The position numbers were made by a program, and so were the translations under genes. A stretch of 64,000 nucleotides of DNA from a virus: IMG/VR virus record IMGVR_UViG_3300032282_004772; one strand, 5' to 3'. The notes under the pieces were generated by a model that ran no database searches, had not been told where the DNA came from, and saw only the letters and a program-made list of their open reading frames with translations. Positions within the stretch are counted from its first letter, which is position 1; each line of letters opens with the position of its first letter. This document shows positions 53,524 to 63,072 of the stretch, piece by piece.

Positions 53524-54327
53524 TTATTTGAAGATATCAAAATACTCTCTCCAACTACATTTGATTAAATTAAACAACTCTGGTTGTTTAACATAACATA
53601 TGTCAAATATTTTTTCATCACTACCGATATACCTATTACTTATTGATTCGTCTATTGTCTCAACAACCAAATTAAGTAATCCGTCAATTAAATGTGATGG
53701 TAATAAGAAAGCGGTTCCTTGTATATTTCTGATTTGTGATAAAGAATGAAACTGTCTATCATTAACACCAAAATGTTTATTATGACTAAAAAACGTAATT
53801 TTATTTAAATCTAATTGTGATATCTTTTCCATATTAGGCCATTTAGCCAAAGCGTAATTTTTAACATCTTCTCGTAATCCGCCAGCGTCCGCCCAAATAA
53901 CCATATCGTTATTAAAATATTTTTTTTCTATAGTATCTTTTAAAAAGAAAACTTTATTAAACATTATAATATTATAGAGTGGTTGACACATTTCAGGGAC
54001 ATCATGAAAACTTACTTTACTTTTAAAATCAGCAGCTCCCATTAATTCACATAATGAATCATTATACTTTTTATACATATCTAATTCATTCAAAGGAACA
54101 TCAACTATTATTGTCTTTGAGAAATCAGGGTCAAACTCTTTTCGATGGTTTTTAATGTCATTTATAAATTTTGTTTCGGTATAAACCACAATGTTTGCGT
54201 CTAAAGATAATGTATTTCTCATCCACCAAAGATATGTGTGATATGACATTCTAAAATTAGACCAATTCTCTCTTCCTATATCATAGAGAGCCATTACAAT
54301 TACAGGATTATTTACAGCCATTCCCAA
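53524..54327 (-). CDS. HtrL/YibB (WlaTC)-family glycosyltransferase-like protein
   Basis: VIVMALYDIGRENW...Y, LYNIIMFNKVFFL, MVIWADAG and SDEKI motifs. Confidence 0.7.
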   Translation of the reverse strand: MGMAVNNPVIVMALYDIGRENWSNFRMSYHTYLWWMRNTLSLDANIVVYTETKFINDIKNHRKEFDPDFSKTIIVDVPLNELDMYKKYNDSLCELMGAADFKSKVSFHDVPEMCQPLYNIIMFNKVFFLKDTIEKKYFNNDMVIWADAGGLREDVKNYALAKWPNMEKISQLDLNKITFFSHNKHFGVNDRQFHSLSQIRNIQGTAFLLPSHLIDGLLNLVVETIDESISNRYIGSDEKIFDICYVKQPELFNLIKCSWREYFDIFK

Positions 54328-55070
54328 GTTATTAATTGATTTTTATGTTTAATGTTTGCAATTTTTTGATTGAAATAATTTGAAGTATTATCAGGATTAA
54401 ATATTGTATTCATTTTTAAATTACGACTTGCCAAATAACTTGGAACAAACCCTTCTCCATATCCTGAAAATCCATTTTTAGTAATGTTTACTAACTCTTG
54501 CATTGCTTTATTAGAATACCTAACAATTGCAAAAAAAGAACCAAAATAATCTTTTATTTCAGGGGATAATTCGTCACCATGACCAGGAAATCTTTGGAAC
54601 CAAAGACCTTTTGAGTGCATCCTATGGTCAGCTTTAGGTATTTCAGGATATCCTTCCACATTTGAATTTTTAAATAAAAAATAACTAAGAAAATCAGAAT
54701 CGTCATTTTGAAATCCATTTAAAAATTCGTCCCAATTATCACAAGAAACGTCATCATCAAAAAACCAATAATATTCATAATTTGGGTTAGCAATATAAAA
54801 GTTAATCATTCTAAGATACGCATAAAACCAAATAATATTTCTATTACCTGCGTGATTCCAATAGTGACCCCGACTAACATCTTTTTTAAAATTAAAGTTA
54901 TTTCTTATATCGTTTTCAGTATATAAGAAAGCATTATAATTTATTGGTTTATTTTTAGAGTTATCTACAATGTAAAAAACATCTTCTTTATTTTTAAAAT
55001 AAGTCCACCAACCTATATAAGAAGTATAGGTTTCAGGAGTAAAACAAATTCCGTAACAATTTTTATACAT
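54312..55070 (-). CDS. GT-A fold glycosyltransferase-like protein
   Basis: PNYEYYWFFDDDV DxD motif, FFAIVRYS..A, GEGFVP and terminal H. Inside the GT cluster. Confidence 0.6.
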   Translation of the reverse strand: MYKNCYGICFTPETYTSYIGWWTYFKNKEDVFYIVDNSKNKPINYNAFLYTENDIRNNFNFKKDVSRGHYWNHAGNRNIIWFYAYLRMINFYIANPNYEYYWFFDDDVSCDNWDEFLNGFQNDDSDFLSYFLFKNSNVEGYPEIPKADHRMHSKGLWFQRFPGHGDELSPEIKDYFGSFFAIVRYSNKAMQELVNITKNGFSGYGEGFVPSYLASRNLKMNTIFNPDNTSNYFNQKIANIKHKNQLITWEWL

Positions 55071-55872
55071 AATCTTTAATTAAAACATCATTCCACGATG
55101 GGACTCTATTAAATTGATGTACAATATCATATTTAATACCTTGTTTAGTATATACAACATTACCTTCCATATATGGAATACCATACTTTAATTTACCTCT
55201 AAACCCCCATCCGTCAAAAAATGGTGTAGGACCTGCAACTGCGCAATGCATCGCCCAAGCTTCGTCTAAATTAAAAATCTTTATGTTAGGTATTTCATTA
55301 TTTGCAATCATAACTATAAGTGCCGCTTGGTCTTTTATATTATGATTATCACTACCTTTTTCACATAACTCAAAAATTCTTTTATACAGAGGTATAAGAG
55401 AAGTCCTTTTACCTCCGATGACTCCTGAACAAATAACTTCATTTGGTCTACATTTTTGAATTTCAGATGGAAATATTTTTGAAATATTATCAGTATTCCA
55501 CGGCTCATCCCCAACTAAAACACCTTCTCCACTTACAAAAATATCATAATTTAAGTCCCACTTTTCAAATGGGTCTCCCTGGAAAACAACATCAAATACA
55601 TCCGTAATTAAAAATAAATCTATTTCTGATTCGTTTAAAAACTCAAAAGTCCTTTCAATTCTTTTATGGTTTATAAACCAAGTGTTGTTTATCACAACAG
55701 GAACAGTTGTAATACCAATTGATTCACACATAGAGATTTCATCTTGTGTGGCATTTGCACACAATAAAATAACCTCTCCTTCAGAATATTTTTTAAAACT
55801 TTTAGACCAAACCAAAATTTTAGAAAAATTATCTTTTATGTTGTTAGATAGTCCTAATAATGCTTTTTTCAT
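55063..55872 (-). CDS. GT-A glycosyltransferase resembling the PLOD/LH3 GT domain
   Basis: LITDVFDVVFQGDPF, ICSGVIGG, KDQAAL and IVHQFNR. Confidence 0.65.
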   Translation of the reverse strand: MKKALLGLSNNIKDNFSKILVWSKSFKKYSEGEVILLCANATQDEISMCESIGITTVPVVINNTWFINHKRIERTFEFLNESEIDLFLITDVFDVVFQGDPFEKWDLNYDIFVSGEGVLVGDEPWNTDNISKIFPSEIQKCRPNEVICSGVIGGKRTSLIPLYKRIFELCEKGSDNHNIKDQAALIVMIANNEIPNIKIFNLDEAWAMHCAVAGPTPFFDGWGFRGKLKYGIPYMEGNVVYTKQGIKYDIVHQFNRVPSWNDVLIKDYV

Positions 55873-55874
55873 TT

Positions 55875-60706: not shown

Positions 60707-61342
60707 TTAAACTTGGGTAACAGTTACAATAACAGATGGTATTGATGGTCGTATAGGATTTAATGAACTACCCTCAGCTACTAACTCAAGATGAATATCA
60801 TCAACACTCCATTTTATTTCTATAAATTCTCCCGCTAATAAATTCTCAACAAAGTTCCACGCAGCTACCTGTTTTCCATTATTTGAGTTTAATGCGATTC
60901 TTGTATTTGAATAGTTATTCGCAACAAACGCATTTTTTTCAAACCAAATATCTATATTTTGAGTTTGTCCTCCTTGAGTTAACTCTATTTGTGCGGAAAA
61001 TTGTATATTATATGTTCCTCCAGATGCAACAGTAAATTTACATCCATCTACAACAGTTACCCCGCTAGATAAAACAGTAGTGTCTGCACTCATTGAGTAT
61101 GCATCGATTGTTGACGTTGCGATTTGACCTGATAATGAAATAAACGAGCCATACGCTTTAGTTGGTGTCTCTCCCGATATTCCACTAAGTCCTGATTGTC
61201 CACTAAATTGTTGTGTTAATGATGAAAAATAAATTGAGTATGTTTTTCCTGTGACTTCTTGGTCATAGTTAACTATCGCCATTAAAGAGTCGCTAGACCC
61301 TGAAACGGATAATGGTAATTGGGATATTGGTAAATTTGGCAT
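60707..61342 (-). CDS. Short fibre/decoration protein with C1q/BclA-C (TNF-like) head
   Basis: N-terminal MPNLPISQLP, short GxS linker, then AYGSF...FTVASGGTYNIQFSAQI...LLAGEFIEIKW...SVIVTVTQV. Confidence 0.65.
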   Translation of the reverse strand: MPNLPISQLPLSVSGSSDSLMAIVNYDQEVTGKTYSIYFSSLTQQFSGQSGLSGISGETPTKAYGSFISLSGQIATSTIDAYSMSADTTVLSSGVTVVDGCKFTVASGGTYNIQFSAQIELTQGGQTQNIDIWFEKNAFVANNYSNTRIALNSNNGKQVAAWNFVENLLAGEFIEIKWSVDDIHLELVAEGSSLNPIRPSIPSVIVTVTQV

Positions 61343-61371
61343 TTTATATTTTTTTTAATAAATATTTTATT

Positions 61372-63072
61372 TTAAGTAATTATAATTTTATTTCCATCCT
61401 CTTGTAAAATGTAATAAAGATTTTCCTGTAATAAGAAATTAGTATCTTCTGTTGGAGTTGGTGTTGGAGTTTCAGTAGGTGTTGGAGTTTCAGTTGGAGT
61501 GATACAATCTCCGTCATTTGTACAAATTGTGACTCCACCTGTTATACTACTTGAACATCCAGGGAAAAGTCCTACAATATGTATTGAGTTTTGTAATGCG
61601 CATACTACAAGTGGAGGCTCTCCTTTTCCTGTATTAGGAATAGGTGCCGATTGAGGATTTCCTTGACAATCTAGCCACTCCGCTGACGAACATAGACTGG
61701 TTCCTGTTATAGTATAGCATAAACAAGCCAATGTTGGAGTTGGTGTTTGGGTCGGTGTTGAGGTTGGAGTTTCTGTAGGTGTTGGAGTCGGACCTGTCGC
61801 GGTTGGTTCAGGTGTTGGAGTTGATGTTGGGGCAACTGTTGGAGTTGGTGTATCAGGACAAACTCCCCCGATACAAGGACCTTTTGAAAGAGCCGTACCG
61901 TCTCCTGAAGCAAGAACAGGTGTGTCAATCGCACATGCGTACTGTGTAGTACCAATAACAACACTTATTGTTTGAGGTATTGAATTACAATCAGTATAAG
62001 TCCAAACAGTAGTTGATATTTTACCTCCTTCAAACGTCCAACATAAACAAGGAATTTCTGTAGGAGTCGGAGTCGGAGTTTCAGTAGGGGTAGGGGTAGG
62101 AACAATGTCAAGACAAACATCAGTAACTCCTCCACCTACATTTAATAATGGGAAGAATAGATGAATTGGATTTGTTACAGAATTTAACGAAGTATATACT
62201 AAAACTCCATTATAATAATAATTAACATTTGTTCCATCATATTCTACTTTAAATACATCACTGATTGCCACAGTTGTAGCACCGATAATATGAACCTGAT
62301 TACCATTTTCGTAAATTTCTAAGAAATTAGGCTGTATATAAAACCCAAAAGATATACTTGTATAAGTGTTAGTAGGGTTATACGCAAATCCACCCATGAA
62401 ATACGACCCTAAATTAAAAATACTAAACGTAACTGAAATTGGAGTTGTATATGTTTCTAATGAATATGCAGATGAAACCCACCCACCATTATTCGCAGTT
62501 GCGGAATACCCAACTATTGTGGAATCAATACCTGTAAAAGTAAATGGAACACACAATATTGGAACAGGTGTTGAAGTCGGAGTTGAGGTAGGAGTTGAAG
62601 TCGGAGTTGAGGTAGGAGTTTCTGTTTGAGTTGGAGTTGGTGTTTGGGTTGGAGAAGTTGTGGGAGTTGGAGAAGTTGTAGGAGTTGGTGTTTGTGTTGG
62701 AGTTGGAGCGCAAGGGAGAGTAGAGCTTGGAGTAGGAGTTGGAGGAATATAAGGTACTTTCGTAGGTATTGGAGGACAATAGAATGTAGGTGTAGGGGTA
62801 GGTATAGGAGTTTCAGTAGGAGTAGGAGTAGGTGTTGGTGAAGTTGTCGGAGTAGGAGTTTCAGTAGGCGTAGGTGGTGGTGTAACAATTAATTCACATG
62901 TAAAATTATAAACAGGAAAATATAAAGAATATGTGCCGGCATAATAATCAGCAATATAATCATATGGTAGCATAACACTTCCTATTGTTATAGTACCACC
63001 TGTTGTCGGATAATAAGTTATAATGGCAACTTGCCCATCATAATTTCCACTACTTAATCTTATTATGTTCAT
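61372..63072 (-). CDS. Mucin-like (Thr-Pro repeat) modular fibre/decoration protein
   Basis: Shared N-terminal module, four or five (TP/TETP) tracts, a ConA/LamG-like beta-sandwich, two Cys-rich CLC(W/Y)T...DC modules and a C-terminal LLQEN...LQEDG motif. Confidence 0.75.
62560..62885 (-). repeat. Coding Thr-Pro low-complexity repeat (further tracts at ~62055-62105, 61730-61850 and 61450-61500)
   Basis: GGAGTT/GGTGTA hexamer arrays on the + strand encoding [10 protein letters not shown]. Confidence 0.85.

What the first reader, a model, noticed from the sequence alone, without database searches (positions are those of the whole stretch)
53524..63072. Candidate phage-encoded mucin-type O-glycosylation system: GT60 initiator, four further GT-like genes and Thr-Pro mucin-like virion substrates
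Seen: five tightly coupled genes (1-2-nt gaps or short overlaps) in the order GT60-like (DSH, GEE, HEY motifs) > DUF3431 > PLOD-like GT-A > DxD GT-A > HtrL/YibB. They directly follow a block of appendage genes, one of which carries long [10 protein letters not shown] tracts. Known: GT60 enzymes are related to GT27 ppGalNAc-Ts and initiate protein glycosylation with alpha-GlcNAc on hydroxyproline (Dictyostelium Gnt1/Skp1) or on Thr of mucin-like domains (trypanosomatid OGNTs, Dictyostelium Gnt2). Inference: the phage builds a multi-sugar O-glycan on its own mucin-like fibres, giving a viral glycocalyx that could stiffen linkers, resist proteases, mask the particle or mediate adhesion. No prolyl hydroxylase is visible in the window, which favours Thr as the acceptor.
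Basis: partly seen in the sequence, partly recalled or inferred. Interest (0 to 1): 0.92.

Follow-up and report, generated by a model that had tools for sequence, protein, structure and literature searches.

The report
Phage glycan island beside mucin-like virion genes
A large uncultured freshwater phage carries a eukaryote-type protein-GlcNAc transferase (GT60) followed by a swappable set of sugar-adding enzymes, set among genes for Thr-Pro "mucin-like" structural proteins. Comparative evidence points to the phage sugar-coating its own particle, but no chemical data exist for this phage.

Summary
Five tightly packed minus-strand genes (53524-57705) start with a strong GT60/PF11397 homologue that has the DSH, GEE and HEY motifs. 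They follow appendage genes that include a 566-aa protein with about 21% Thr and 15% Pro.

Three of the five are shown to be glycosyltransferases: GT60, a GT6-like GT-A and a GT31/DUF707-like GT-A. DUF3431 and HtrL_YibB are confirmed only as family members.

New here:
- The window is a fragment of a very abundant clade of ~320-kb jumbo myophages.
- GT60 and an HtrL-like gene are conserved and syntenic in that clade. The genes between them form a hypervariable cassette, with 47 protein clusters in 74 loci.
- TP-tract genes usually flank the island.
- TPTxTPT-coding tracts are abundant in all five GT60-positive genomes tested and absent from five GT60-negative relatives of XacN1.
- 18 of 46 IMG/VR contigs picked only by TP tracts carry GT60, against 0 of 42 control contigs.
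- XacN1, the cultured carrier, has Schiff-stained virion glycoproteins.

A DNA-glycan role is poorly supported: there is no TET and the ThyA is a dUMP-type enzyme 88 kb away. Thr versus hydroxyproline as acceptor stays open.

Verdict: probable virion O-glycosylation system (about 0.55), a new variant of a known kind.

The scan had flagged this same stretch before, in an overlapping window of the same genome.

The parts
56449..57705 (-). GT60-family (PF11397) predicted polypeptide alpha-GlcNAc transferase. It is the conserved first gene of the island. It is soluble, and its C-terminal ~120 aa lie outside the Pfam model.
   Evidence: Pfam 3.6e-68 and phrog_24687 1.9e-163. DxH, GEE and HEY motifs are conserved. 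The profile hits only ppGalNAc-T 6s22 in PDB, with DxH and the Gal/GalNAc-T motif aligned. No TM segment. 378 IMG/VR hits and more than 7,400 metagenomic clusters.
55875..56447 (-). DUF3431-family protein; a cassette gene of unproven function.
   Evidence: PF11913 1.3e-13. No link to solved GTs. Present only in loci L005, L007, L022 and L023 among 74.
55063..55872 (-). GT-A glycosyltransferase closest in fold to GT6 retaining alpha-1,3-Gal/GalNAc transferases; a cassette gene.
   Evidence: AF2 pLDDT 93. Foldseek PDB E 4e-10, TM about 0.55, to alpha3GalT, ABO GTA/GTB and BoGT6a. Invariant D91-x-x-D94 and other residues. A homologous domain is fused to GT60 in another phage (L242).
54312..55070 (-). 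GT-A glycosyltransferase with an invariant DDD motif, similar to GT31 and DUF707/DUF3405; a cassette gene.
   Evidence: AF2 pLDDT 93. PDB best hits are B3GNT2 and B3GalT5/6, E about 4e-6. Atlas TM 0.72-0.73 to DUF707/DUF3405 clusters. BFVD hits are giant-virus GTs and GT25.
53524..54327 (-). HtrL_YibB-family protein, the second conserved component of the island. Here it is a 267-aa single domain; in relatives it is usually ~555 aa.
   Evidence: PF09612 3.8e-26. An HtrL-like gene is present in 73 of 74 loci and in XacN1 ORF330. No PDB or profile link to GTs.
57751..57775 (.). GC-rich hairpin followed by a T run, between p81 and GT60; a likely terminator that sets the GT genes apart as their own transcription unit.
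   Evidence: a stem of 10 pairs on the - strand and 11 on the +; sequence.
61372..63072 (-). 566-aa protein built as N-terminal 65-aa module, long (T-P-T-x)n tracts, then globular and Cys-rich domains; the candidate acceptor.
   Evidence: weak phrog_19691 'virion structural protein' hit at 7.9e-7.
63075..64000 (-). C-terminal part of a 1086-aa protein that runs off the window to contig position 66299. It has two TP linkers, Cys-rich modules and a C-terminal papain-like peptidase.
58052..60678 (-). Two paralogues (693 aa and 159 aa) sharing the 65-aa N-terminal module of the TP protein, without TP tracts.
53099..53479 (-). Conserved 126-aa protein that closes the island, just before PolB. In 17 of 74 relatives its homologue is extended by TP tracts.
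   Evidence: (L248); weak BppU_N similarity at E 0.12.
38757..42095 (-). Tail sheath protein (1112 aa) with a Thr/Pro-rich tract at aa 286-325; a second candidate acceptor and a definite virion protein.
   Evidence: Phage_sheath_1/1C domains; tract.

Best explanation
The locus is a phage-encoded, cytoplasmic protein O-glycosylation island.

Proposed mechanism:
- The conserved GT60 enzyme starts the glycan by transferring a HexNAc, most likely alpha-GlcNAc from host UDP-GlcNAc. The acceptor is Thr, or less likely hydroxyproline, in the (T-P-T-x)n tracts of newly made virion appendage, sheath and decoration proteins.
- The downstream soluble enzymes then extend the glycan. In this phage they are a DUF3431 protein, a GT6-like and a GT31/DUF707-like GT-A transferase, and an HtrL-family protein.
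- Relatives keep GT60 and HtrL but swap the genes in between. The replacements include GT2, GT10, GT25, GT32, PLOD-GT and RXYLT1-like transferases, O-methyltransferases, nucleotidyltransferases and, in XacN1, a carbamoyltransferase. Each lineage would therefore display its own glycan on mucin-like linkers.

Shown: gene content, folds, synteny, cassette variability and the co-occurrence statistics.
Inferred: the acceptor, the donor sugar, the order of action and the virion location of the TP proteins.
For: 1. Strong GT60 membership and conserved catalytic motifs. The only PDB relative by profile is a polypeptide GalNAc-transferase. From established knowledge, characterised GT60 enzymes (Gnt1, Gnt2, trypanosomatid OGNTs) all act on polypeptide Thr, Ser or Hyp.
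2. Two more genes are confident GT-A folds.
3. None of the five has a TM segment.
4. In 74 related loci, GT60 and p126 bracket a cassette of 47 protein clusters rich in GT families.
5. TPTxTPT-coding counts in GT60-positive genomes are: own contig 15, G001 74, XacN1 51, Xoo-sp13 51, CM1 22. In the GT60-negative relatives RaK2, GAP32, Atu_ph07, SCTP-2 and CBB the count is 0 each.
6. 18 of 46 IMG/VR contigs chosen only by a TP pattern carry PF11397, against 0 of 42 chosen by a (Gxx)8 pattern; p=1.3e-6, uncorrected.
7. The carriers include divergent GT60 lineages at 28-38% identity (G020, G010, G027, G032).
8. The gene immediately upstream of GT60 is a TP-tract protein in 46 of 73 relatives.
9. 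A GT60 fused to a domain like the third gene exists in G027.
10. XacN1 virions contain at least two Schiff-stained glycoprotein bands, and the authors point to ORF334, the GT60 homologue. XacN1 TP-tract ORFs sit in the sheath, baseplate and head modules.
Against: - No direct chemistry exists for this phage or its clade, and the XacN1 glycoprotein bands were not identified.
- The association is confounded by shared ancestry and contig length. Most of the 18 positive contigs belong to one clade, and four divergent lineages were ascertained through TP tracts.
- 7 of 11 complete TP-tract phage genomes lack GT60, so TP tracts do not require it.
- Two GT60 lineages sampled blind (L255, L257) show no long TP tract within 10 kb.
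- A terminator separates the GT genes from the appendage genes, and the island abuts PolB.
- HtrL, GT25 and XacN1's GT9 carry LPS-type family names.
- All characterised GT60 enzymes are eukaryotic.
Confidence: 0.55

Rival explanations
1. The island remodels a host cell-envelope glycan during infection, for example the LPS/LOS core, O-antigen or capsule precursors on the cytoplasmic face. This could block superinfection or stop progeny sticking to debris. On this view the TP tracts are unrelated linkers.
For: HtrL_YibB, GT25, Caps_synth/GT32 and XacN1's neighbouring GT9 are families named for LPS or capsule synthesis. Hypervariable cassettes are typical of surface-polysaccharide loci. LPS-core GTs are also soluble or peripheral proteins.
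Against: The conserved first enzyme belongs to a family whose characterised members glycosylate polypeptides and whose only PDB relative is ppGalNAc-T. This rival does not explain the tight co-occurrence and adjacency with TP-tract genes, nor the Schiff-positive virion proteins of XacN1. No flippase, polymerase or lipid-carrier transferase was seen in the cassettes examined.
Confidence: 0.15
2. The enzymes glycosylate phage DNA, building a multi-sugar hypermodification on hydroxymethyl-pyrimidines to evade restriction, as in the systems described by Pyle et al.
For: The island lies next to PolB here and near DNA polymerase and RNase H in XacN1. XacN1 has a carbamoyltransferase in the cluster. 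Phage GT-A clusters with variable partners are known to build DNA glycans (bioRxiv 10.1101/2023.12.21.572611). The fourth gene has R...DDD...E-G-F residues loosely recalling the motif reported there.
Against: The complete relatives and XacN1 show no Tet_JBP hit (though that search had no positive control). The only thymidylate-synthase homologue in the complete relative G001 best matches true TS and has the dUMP-type Asn (PFN). It lies about 88 kb from the island, whereas such pathways are usually clustered. Structural neighbours of the fourth gene are DUF707/DUF3405, GT31 and GT25, not known DNA GTs. GT60 has no known nucleic-acid activity.
Confidence: 0.08
3. The enzymes glycosylate proteins, but not the TP tracts. 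The targets would be other sites on virion proteins, as with the capsid or tail-tube tails of mycobacteriophages, or host proteins. The TP tracts co-occur only because both are traits of the same jumbo-phage lineages.
For: The association is partly phylogenetic. TP tracts occur without GT60 in 7 of 11 complete genomes. GT60 loci L255 and L257 lack nearby TP tracts.
Against: Co-occurrence recurs across GT60 lineages as divergent as 28-50% identity, in phages with unrelated polymerases. TP-tract genes immediately flank the island in most relatives. From established knowledge, T-P-x-P contexts are classic acceptors of the related GT27 enzymes.
Confidence: 0.12

Closest known systems
GT60 polypeptide alpha-GlcNAc transferases: Dictyostelium/Toxoplasma Gnt1 of the Skp1 hydroxyproline pathway, Dictyostelium Gnt2, and trypanosomatid OGNTs
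   Same: Same Pfam/CAZy family, with the DxH motif and the GT27-like Gal/GalNAc-T motif. It is soluble and cytoplasmic like Gnt1. It is followed by stepwise soluble elongating GTs, as in the Skp1 pathway. The candidate acceptors are Thr/Pro-rich mucin-like repeats, as for Gnt2 and OGNT.
   Different: It is encoded by a bacteriophage. It carries an extra conserved C-terminal ~120 aa. There is no Skp1, and no prolyl hydroxylase in the contig. The elongating enzymes belong to other families and vary between relatives. Activity and acceptor are untested.
Mycobacteriophage virion O-glycosylation (Freeman et al. 2023, Cell Host Microbe; cited in PMC12619734, not held in the library)
   Same: Phage-encoded glycosyltransferases next to structural genes, proposed or shown to decorate virion proteins in the cytoplasm.
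   Different: As recalled from that work (not read here), the glycans sit on C-terminal extensions of capsid and tail-tube subunits of actinobacteriophages, and the GT families differ. Here the initiator is GT60, the candidate acceptors are long internal (TPTx)n tracts in many proteins, the phages are jumbo myoviruses of probably Gram-negative hosts, and the locus is a conserved initiator plus a swappable cassette.
Xanthomonas jumbo phage XacN1 ORF334-ORF330 cluster (PMC5852040)
   Same: GT60 homologue at 47% identity, followed by variable genes and an HtrL-like 546-aa gene. About 17 TP-tract proteins. Schiff-positive virion proteins.
   Different: A different phage lineage: distantly Rak2-like, with no PolB match at E<=1e-20 and 50% GC. 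Its cassette holds a carbamoyltransferase. The link between GT60 and TP tracts was not made in that paper.
Giant-virus self-glycosylation (chlorovirus PBCV-1 capsid glycans; Mimivirus fibril and collagen glycosylation)
   Same: Virus-encoded cytoplasmic GT sets that build a glycan on virion proteins independently of host machinery. Structural and language-model neighbours of the fourth gene are mostly Nucleocytoviricota GTs.
   Different: Eukaryotic viruses, with different linkages (atypical N-glycans; Hyl-linked sugars) and no GT60-initiated mucin-type scheme shown.
Phage DNA glycan hypermodification clusters (Pyle et al., bioRxiv 10.1101/2023.12.21.572611)
   Same: Clusters of GT-A/GT-B enzymes with variable partners in phage genomes, sometimes beside replication genes.
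   Different: Those clusters sit next to 5mYOX/TET plus C5-MT, or to ThyS-type hydroxymethylases. None was found here.

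Membership tests
CAZy GT60 / Pfam PF11397 (GlcNAc) | Sequence match to the family model above the curated threshold | tested here: met
   231 bits against a cut-off of 21, E 3.6e-68; confirmed on the contig.
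CAZy GT60 / Pfam PF11397 (GlcNAc) | GT-A catalytic core with a DxH metal motif and a GT27-like Gal/GalNAc-T motif | tested here: met
   D94 and H96 are invariant; E206, E207, H231 and Y233 are invariant or nearly so in 10 divergent sequences. The motifs align to ppGalNAc-T 6s22.
CAZy GT60 / Pfam PF11397 (GlcNAc) | Transfers alpha-GlcNAc from UDP-GlcNAc to Thr, Ser or Hyp of a polypeptide | not testable with these tools
   Needs an enzyme assay or glycoproteomics.
Mucin-type protein O-glycosylation system | Acceptor proteins with dense Thr/Ser-Pro repeat tracts encoded alongside the initiating transferase | tested here: met
Mucin-type protein O-glycosylation system | Glycans actually attached to those tracts | not testable with these tools
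   The only evidence is indirect: unidentified Schiff-stained virion bands in XacN1.
Mucin-type protein O-glycosylation system | Elongating glycosyltransferases acting after the initiator | tested here: inconclusive
   Two GT-A folds are shown and there is a GT60 fusion with one of them. The order of action and the acceptors are unknown. DUF3431 and HtrL are not shown to be GTs.
Skp1-type hydroxyproline glycosylation pathway | Prolyl 4-hydroxylase partner that creates the Hyp acceptor | tested here: not met
   No PF13640 hit in the own contig, in four partial relatives, or in XacN1 and Xoo-sp13. Three PF13640 genes exist far from the island in complete relatives G001 and G002, so Hyp is not excluded for those.
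Phage DNA glycan hypermodification pathway | A neighbouring enzyme that makes 5hmC or 5hmU (TET/5mYOX with C5-MT, or a dCMP/dUMP hydroxymethylase) | tested here: not met
   No Tet_JBP hit (the control was silent). The ThyA homologue is TS-like with Asn in PFN and lies 88 kb away.
Pfam PF09612 HtrL_YibB | Full-length match above the curated threshold | tested here: met
   92.7 bits against 24.1, residues 9-266 on profile positions 4-265 of 267.
Pfam PF11913 DUF3431 | Match above the curated threshold | tested here: met
   51.7 bits against 25, in two stretches; the best covers profile positions 8-68 of 219.
GT6 (retaining alpha-1,3-Gal/GalNAc transferases) - third gene | Fold similarity and a DxD-type motif; sequence membership | tested here: inconclusive
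   Foldseek E 4e-10, TM about 0.55, 10-16% identity. No Pfam hit. A few homologues carry PF03407. It works like a GT-A, but family membership is not established.

The most novel reading that the evidence does not exclude
An abundant, uncultured clade of freshwater jumbo phages, and independently the XacN1-like phages, carries a 'virion serotype locus'. A conserved eukaryote-type GT60 initiator is paired with a rapidly exchanged cassette of elongating and decorating enzymes. Together they would build lineage-specific O-glycans on mucin-like (TPTx)n tracts spread over ten or more virion proteins. The result would be a diversifying viral glycocalyx, analogous to bacterial O-antigen variation but on phage particles.
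Probability: 0.4. Interest if true: 0.85.

Novelty: new variant of a known kind. Interest (0 to 1): 0.72.

Why it matters
Glycosylation of phage particles has only recently been demonstrated, and for a narrow group of actinobacteriophages.

If the present reading holds, it would show three things:
- A mucin-type scheme, with an initiating polypeptide HexNAc transferase, Thr-Pro repeat acceptors and modular elongation, operates in the bacterial cytoplasm under phage control.
- It is common in nature. The GT60 gene has more than 7,400 close clusters in metagenomes, and about 6,400 clusters at 50% identity across the wider family.
- The glycan itself is under diversifying selection, because the cassette is swapped between close relatives.

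That bears on phage stability, adhesion, host recognition, immune recognition in therapy, and the evolutionary traffic of 'eukaryotic' GT families (GT60, GT10, GT31/DUF707, PLOD-GT, RXYLT1-like, DUF3431) among phages, giant viruses and eukaryotes. A cultured model, XacN1 on Xanthomonas citri, makes the question directly testable.

Tried and rejected
- Megablast of the region against cultured phages found no match.
- PolB tblastn found only distant Salinibacter phages at about 23% identity, so no close cultured relative exists.
- phmmer of GT60 against PDB found nothing; a profile was needed.
- The HtrL profile against PDB, and hhalign of HtrL and DUF3431 against the two GT-A alignments, found nothing. 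Their GT status is therefore left open; no structure-prediction jobs remained for them.
- A literature search for GT60 in phages found nothing relevant. DUF3431 and HtrL papers gave no function. The Freeman 2023 paper is not held. Xoo-sp13 has no primary proteomics.
It was rerun without that row.
- Blind sampling of four GT60 representatives gave only two usable contigs, neither with long TP tracts within 10 kb, and their full contigs could not be searched.
- The idea that the fourth gene is a base-J-type DNA GT, from its R...DDD...E pattern, is not supported by its structural neighbours, but no JGT structure exists to exclude it.
- The sigma-70 promoter scan is no better than shuffles. A TATTTAT motif 11-47 nt upstream of about 17 genes, 20-30 nt in most, is a candidate phage promoter, but it lies at -44 for GT60, inside the terminator tail, so expression timing is unresolved.
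- PHROG hits of the G001 TP proteins (phrog_15511) fall on the low-complexity tract and say nothing about function.
- Complex prediction was not used, since enzyme-substrate pairs are outside its remit.

Full report
**What the window is.** The window is 63,964 bases of a 70,107-bp IMG/VR contig, estimated at 23% of a genome. It encodes tail sheath, baseplate J, gp32-like, DnaB-like, RNR and family-B polymerase genes. This is a jumbo myovirus with about 30% GC. No cultured phage is close. Megablast finds nothing, and the PolB has only ~23% identical Salinibacter-phage hits. The clade is nonetheless very abundant. The GT60 gene has 378 IMG/VR matches at 71-83% identity in the best 80, including complete 317-321-kb genomes with terminal repeats. 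It also has more than 7,400 clusters at 90% identity in metagenomes. The clade may correspond to, or be related to, the freshwater 'moraphages' (PMC12619734); this was not tested.

**Checking the observation.** The five minus-strand genes and their junctions are exactly as described.
- Gene 1 (56449-57705) is a strong PF11397/GT60 member (3.6e-68; phrog_24687 1.9e-163). Its DSH, GEE and HEY motifs stay conserved in homologues down to 27% identity. A profile of these sequences hits one thing in PDB, a polypeptide GalNAc-transferase, with the DxH and Gal/GalNAc-T motifs aligned.
- Gene 2 is a DUF3431 member and gene 5 an HtrL_YibB member.
- Genes 3 and 4 have no Pfam hit, but both fold at pLDDT 93.
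- Gene 3 is a GT-A closest to GT6 alpha-3-Gal/GalNAc transferases (E 4e-10, TM about 0.55). It is not PLOD-like.
- Gene 4 is a GT-A with an invariant DDD motif. It is closest to GT31 enzymes in PDB, to DUF707/DUF3405 clusters in the ESM Atlas (TM 0.72) and to giant-virus GTs.
- I could not show that DUF3431 or HtrL are glycosyltransferases.
- None of the five has a transmembrane segment.

Upstream lie a 566-aa protein with seven Thr/Pro tracts of 10 or more residues plus several shorter ones, two paralogues that share its 65-aa N-terminal module, and a 1086-aa protein with TP linkers and a papain-like domain. The tail sheath itself carries a Thr/Pro tract. A strong hairpin terminator (57751-57775) separates this block from GT60.

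**Anatomy across relatives.** In 74 related loci, GT60 and a conserved 126-aa protein just before PolB bracket a region of 1.7-9.8 kb. Its genes fall into 47 clusters. Only an HtrL-like gene recurs, in 73 of 74 loci, usually as a ~555-aa last gene. The window's own cassette (DUF3431, GT6-like, GT31-like, short HtrL) occurs in only four of the 74 related loci.

Other cassettes carry GT25, GT2, GT10, GT32, PLOD-GT and RXYLT1-like domains, a sugar O-methyltransferase, and a HAD-nucleotidyltransferase fusion. XacN1 and Xoo-sp13 have GT60, then a carbamoyltransferase, two ORFs and an HtrL-like gene. So the unit is a conserved initiator and a conserved partner around a swappable middle, which is the pattern of a glycan under diversifying selection. 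In another phage (G027) GT60 is fused to a domain homologous to gene 3, which ties those two activities together.

**Link to TP tracts.**
- The complete relative G001 encodes about 10 proteins with long (TPTx)n tracts, one with roughly 400 such residues.
- XacN1, whose replication genes are unrelated, encodes about 17. They sit beside sheath, baseplate and head genes.
- Counting the TPTxTPT-coding pattern gives 15 (own contig), 74 (G001), 51 (XacN1), 51 (Xoo-sp13) and 22 (CM1) in GT60-positive genomes. It gives 0 in each of five GT60-negative members of XacN1's wider group, 2.0 Mb in total. Reversed-pattern controls give 0-1.
- Going the other way, 18 of 46 IMG/VR contigs picked solely by a (TPTx)3TPT pattern carry PF11397. 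This compares with 0 of 42 picked by a collagen-like pattern (Fisher p=1.3e-6).
- The positives include divergent GT60 lineages at 28-38% identity.
- Within the main clade, 74 of 80 loci have a TP-tract gene within 10 kb.
- The gene immediately upstream of GT60 is a TP-tract gene in 46 of 73 loci.
- The p126 homologue downstream is itself extended by TP tracts in 17 of 74 loci.

**Caveats on that link.**
- Most positives are one clade, and the control contigs are shorter.
- 7 of 11 complete TP-tract genomes lack GT60.
- Two blind-sampled GT60 loci lack nearby TP tracts.

**Experimental anchor.** The XacN1 paper reports at least two periodic-acid-Schiff-stained virion protein bands. It suggests that ORF328 and ORF334 make them; ORF334 is the GT60 homologue (PMC5852040). 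The bands were not identified.

**Rivals.**
- DNA glycosylation. Published phage DNA-glycan clusters sit beside TET/C5-MT or hydroxymethylase genes. Here no Tet_JBP is found. The single ThyA homologue of the complete relative best matches true thymidylate synthases, has the dUMP-type Asn, and lies 88 kb away.
- Host-envelope remodelling. This is suggested by the LPS-type names of HtrL, GT25 and GT9. It explains neither the GT60 initiator, nor the TP association, nor the virion glycoproteins.
- A protein target other than the TP tracts cannot be excluded.

**Thr versus Hyp.** The contig, four partial relatives, XacN1 and Xoo-sp13 lack PF13640 oxygenases. The complete relatives G001 and G002 have three, far from the island. 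Thr is the simplest common acceptor, but Hyp is not excluded.

**Verdict.** Phage-encoded virion glycosylation is already known in kind, from mycobacteriophages and giant viruses. The new elements are the GT60 initiator, the mucin-like acceptors spread over many virion proteins, and the cassette architecture, so I class this as a new variant of a known kind.

Noticed in passing
window 58052-63072: Three neighbouring genes (566, 159 and 693 aa) share a ~65-aa N-terminal module but have unrelated C-terminal parts. In the complete relative G001 the module is a stand-alone 91-aa ORF (G001 72511-72786) next to TP-tract genes. The 159-aa protein also has four ~20-aa internal repeats (DLTF.IIPNNDFYYN.L.PNPI).
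   Followed up: partly
window 38757-42095: The tail sheath protein is 1112 aa, with ~800 aa ahead of the sheath domains. It carries a Thr/Pro-rich, poly-Thr tract at aa 286-325, so a core virion protein has a mucin-like insert.
   Followed up: partly
window 56449-56800 (GT60 aa ~300-418): The C-terminal ~120 aa of the phage GT60 lie outside the Pfam model. They are conserved in the clade and in XacN1, missing in G032, and replaced by a GT-A domain in G027. This may be an acceptor-binding domain, by analogy with the lectin domain of ppGalNAc-Ts; untested.
   Followed up: no
L242:8090-10489 (G027, 310-kb contig): A 799-aa fusion of a GT60 domain (28% identity) with a domain homologous to the window's third gene (30% over 188 aa). 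That genome has 165 TPTxTPT-coding matches.
   Followed up: partly
protein ids P0361-P0383: The best-scoring GT60 representatives in the 50%-identity library are giant proteins of 630-2461 aa with 2-5 GT60-like stretches each. Their origin and context are unknown.
   Followed up: no
window, upstream of many genes (e.g. 53501, 60155, 61364, 36217, 33948): A (C/A)TATTTAT motif sits 11-47 nt upstream (20-30 nt in most) of the start codons of about 17 genes, most of them structural. It is a candidate phage late-type promoter and also occurs before DnaB, SOD and p126.
   Followed up: partly
window 47178-48857: A complete Fe/Mn superoxide dismutase (Sod_Fe_N and Sod_Fe_C) is fused to ~330 further residues with no Pfam hit.
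   Followed up: no
window 63075-64000, continuing to contig position 66299: A 1086-aa protein with Cys-rich modules, two TP linkers and a C-terminal papain-like peptidase (phrog_16701, 4.4e-53). XacN1 also encodes a papain-family protease (ORF382), next to a 2823-aa TP-tract protein.
   Followed up: partly
G001 28772-29065, 152970-153233, 162023-162214: There are three PF13640 (P4H-type 2OG-Fe(II) oxygenase) genes in the complete relatives G001 and G002. None is found in XacN1, Xoo-sp13 or the contigs closest to the window.
   Followed up: partly
L248:1584-2816 and 16 other loci: The 126-aa protein that closes the island is, in 17 of 74 relatives, the N-terminal domain of a longer protein with TP tracts. 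This suggests it is a structural module, not a replication protein.
   Followed up: partly
L243 (G032) 10838-11343: A long TP-coding tract lies on the strand opposite to the longest ORF, directly beside the GT60 gene. Either the gene call there is wrong or the real product is a Val-Gly repeat.
   Followed up: no
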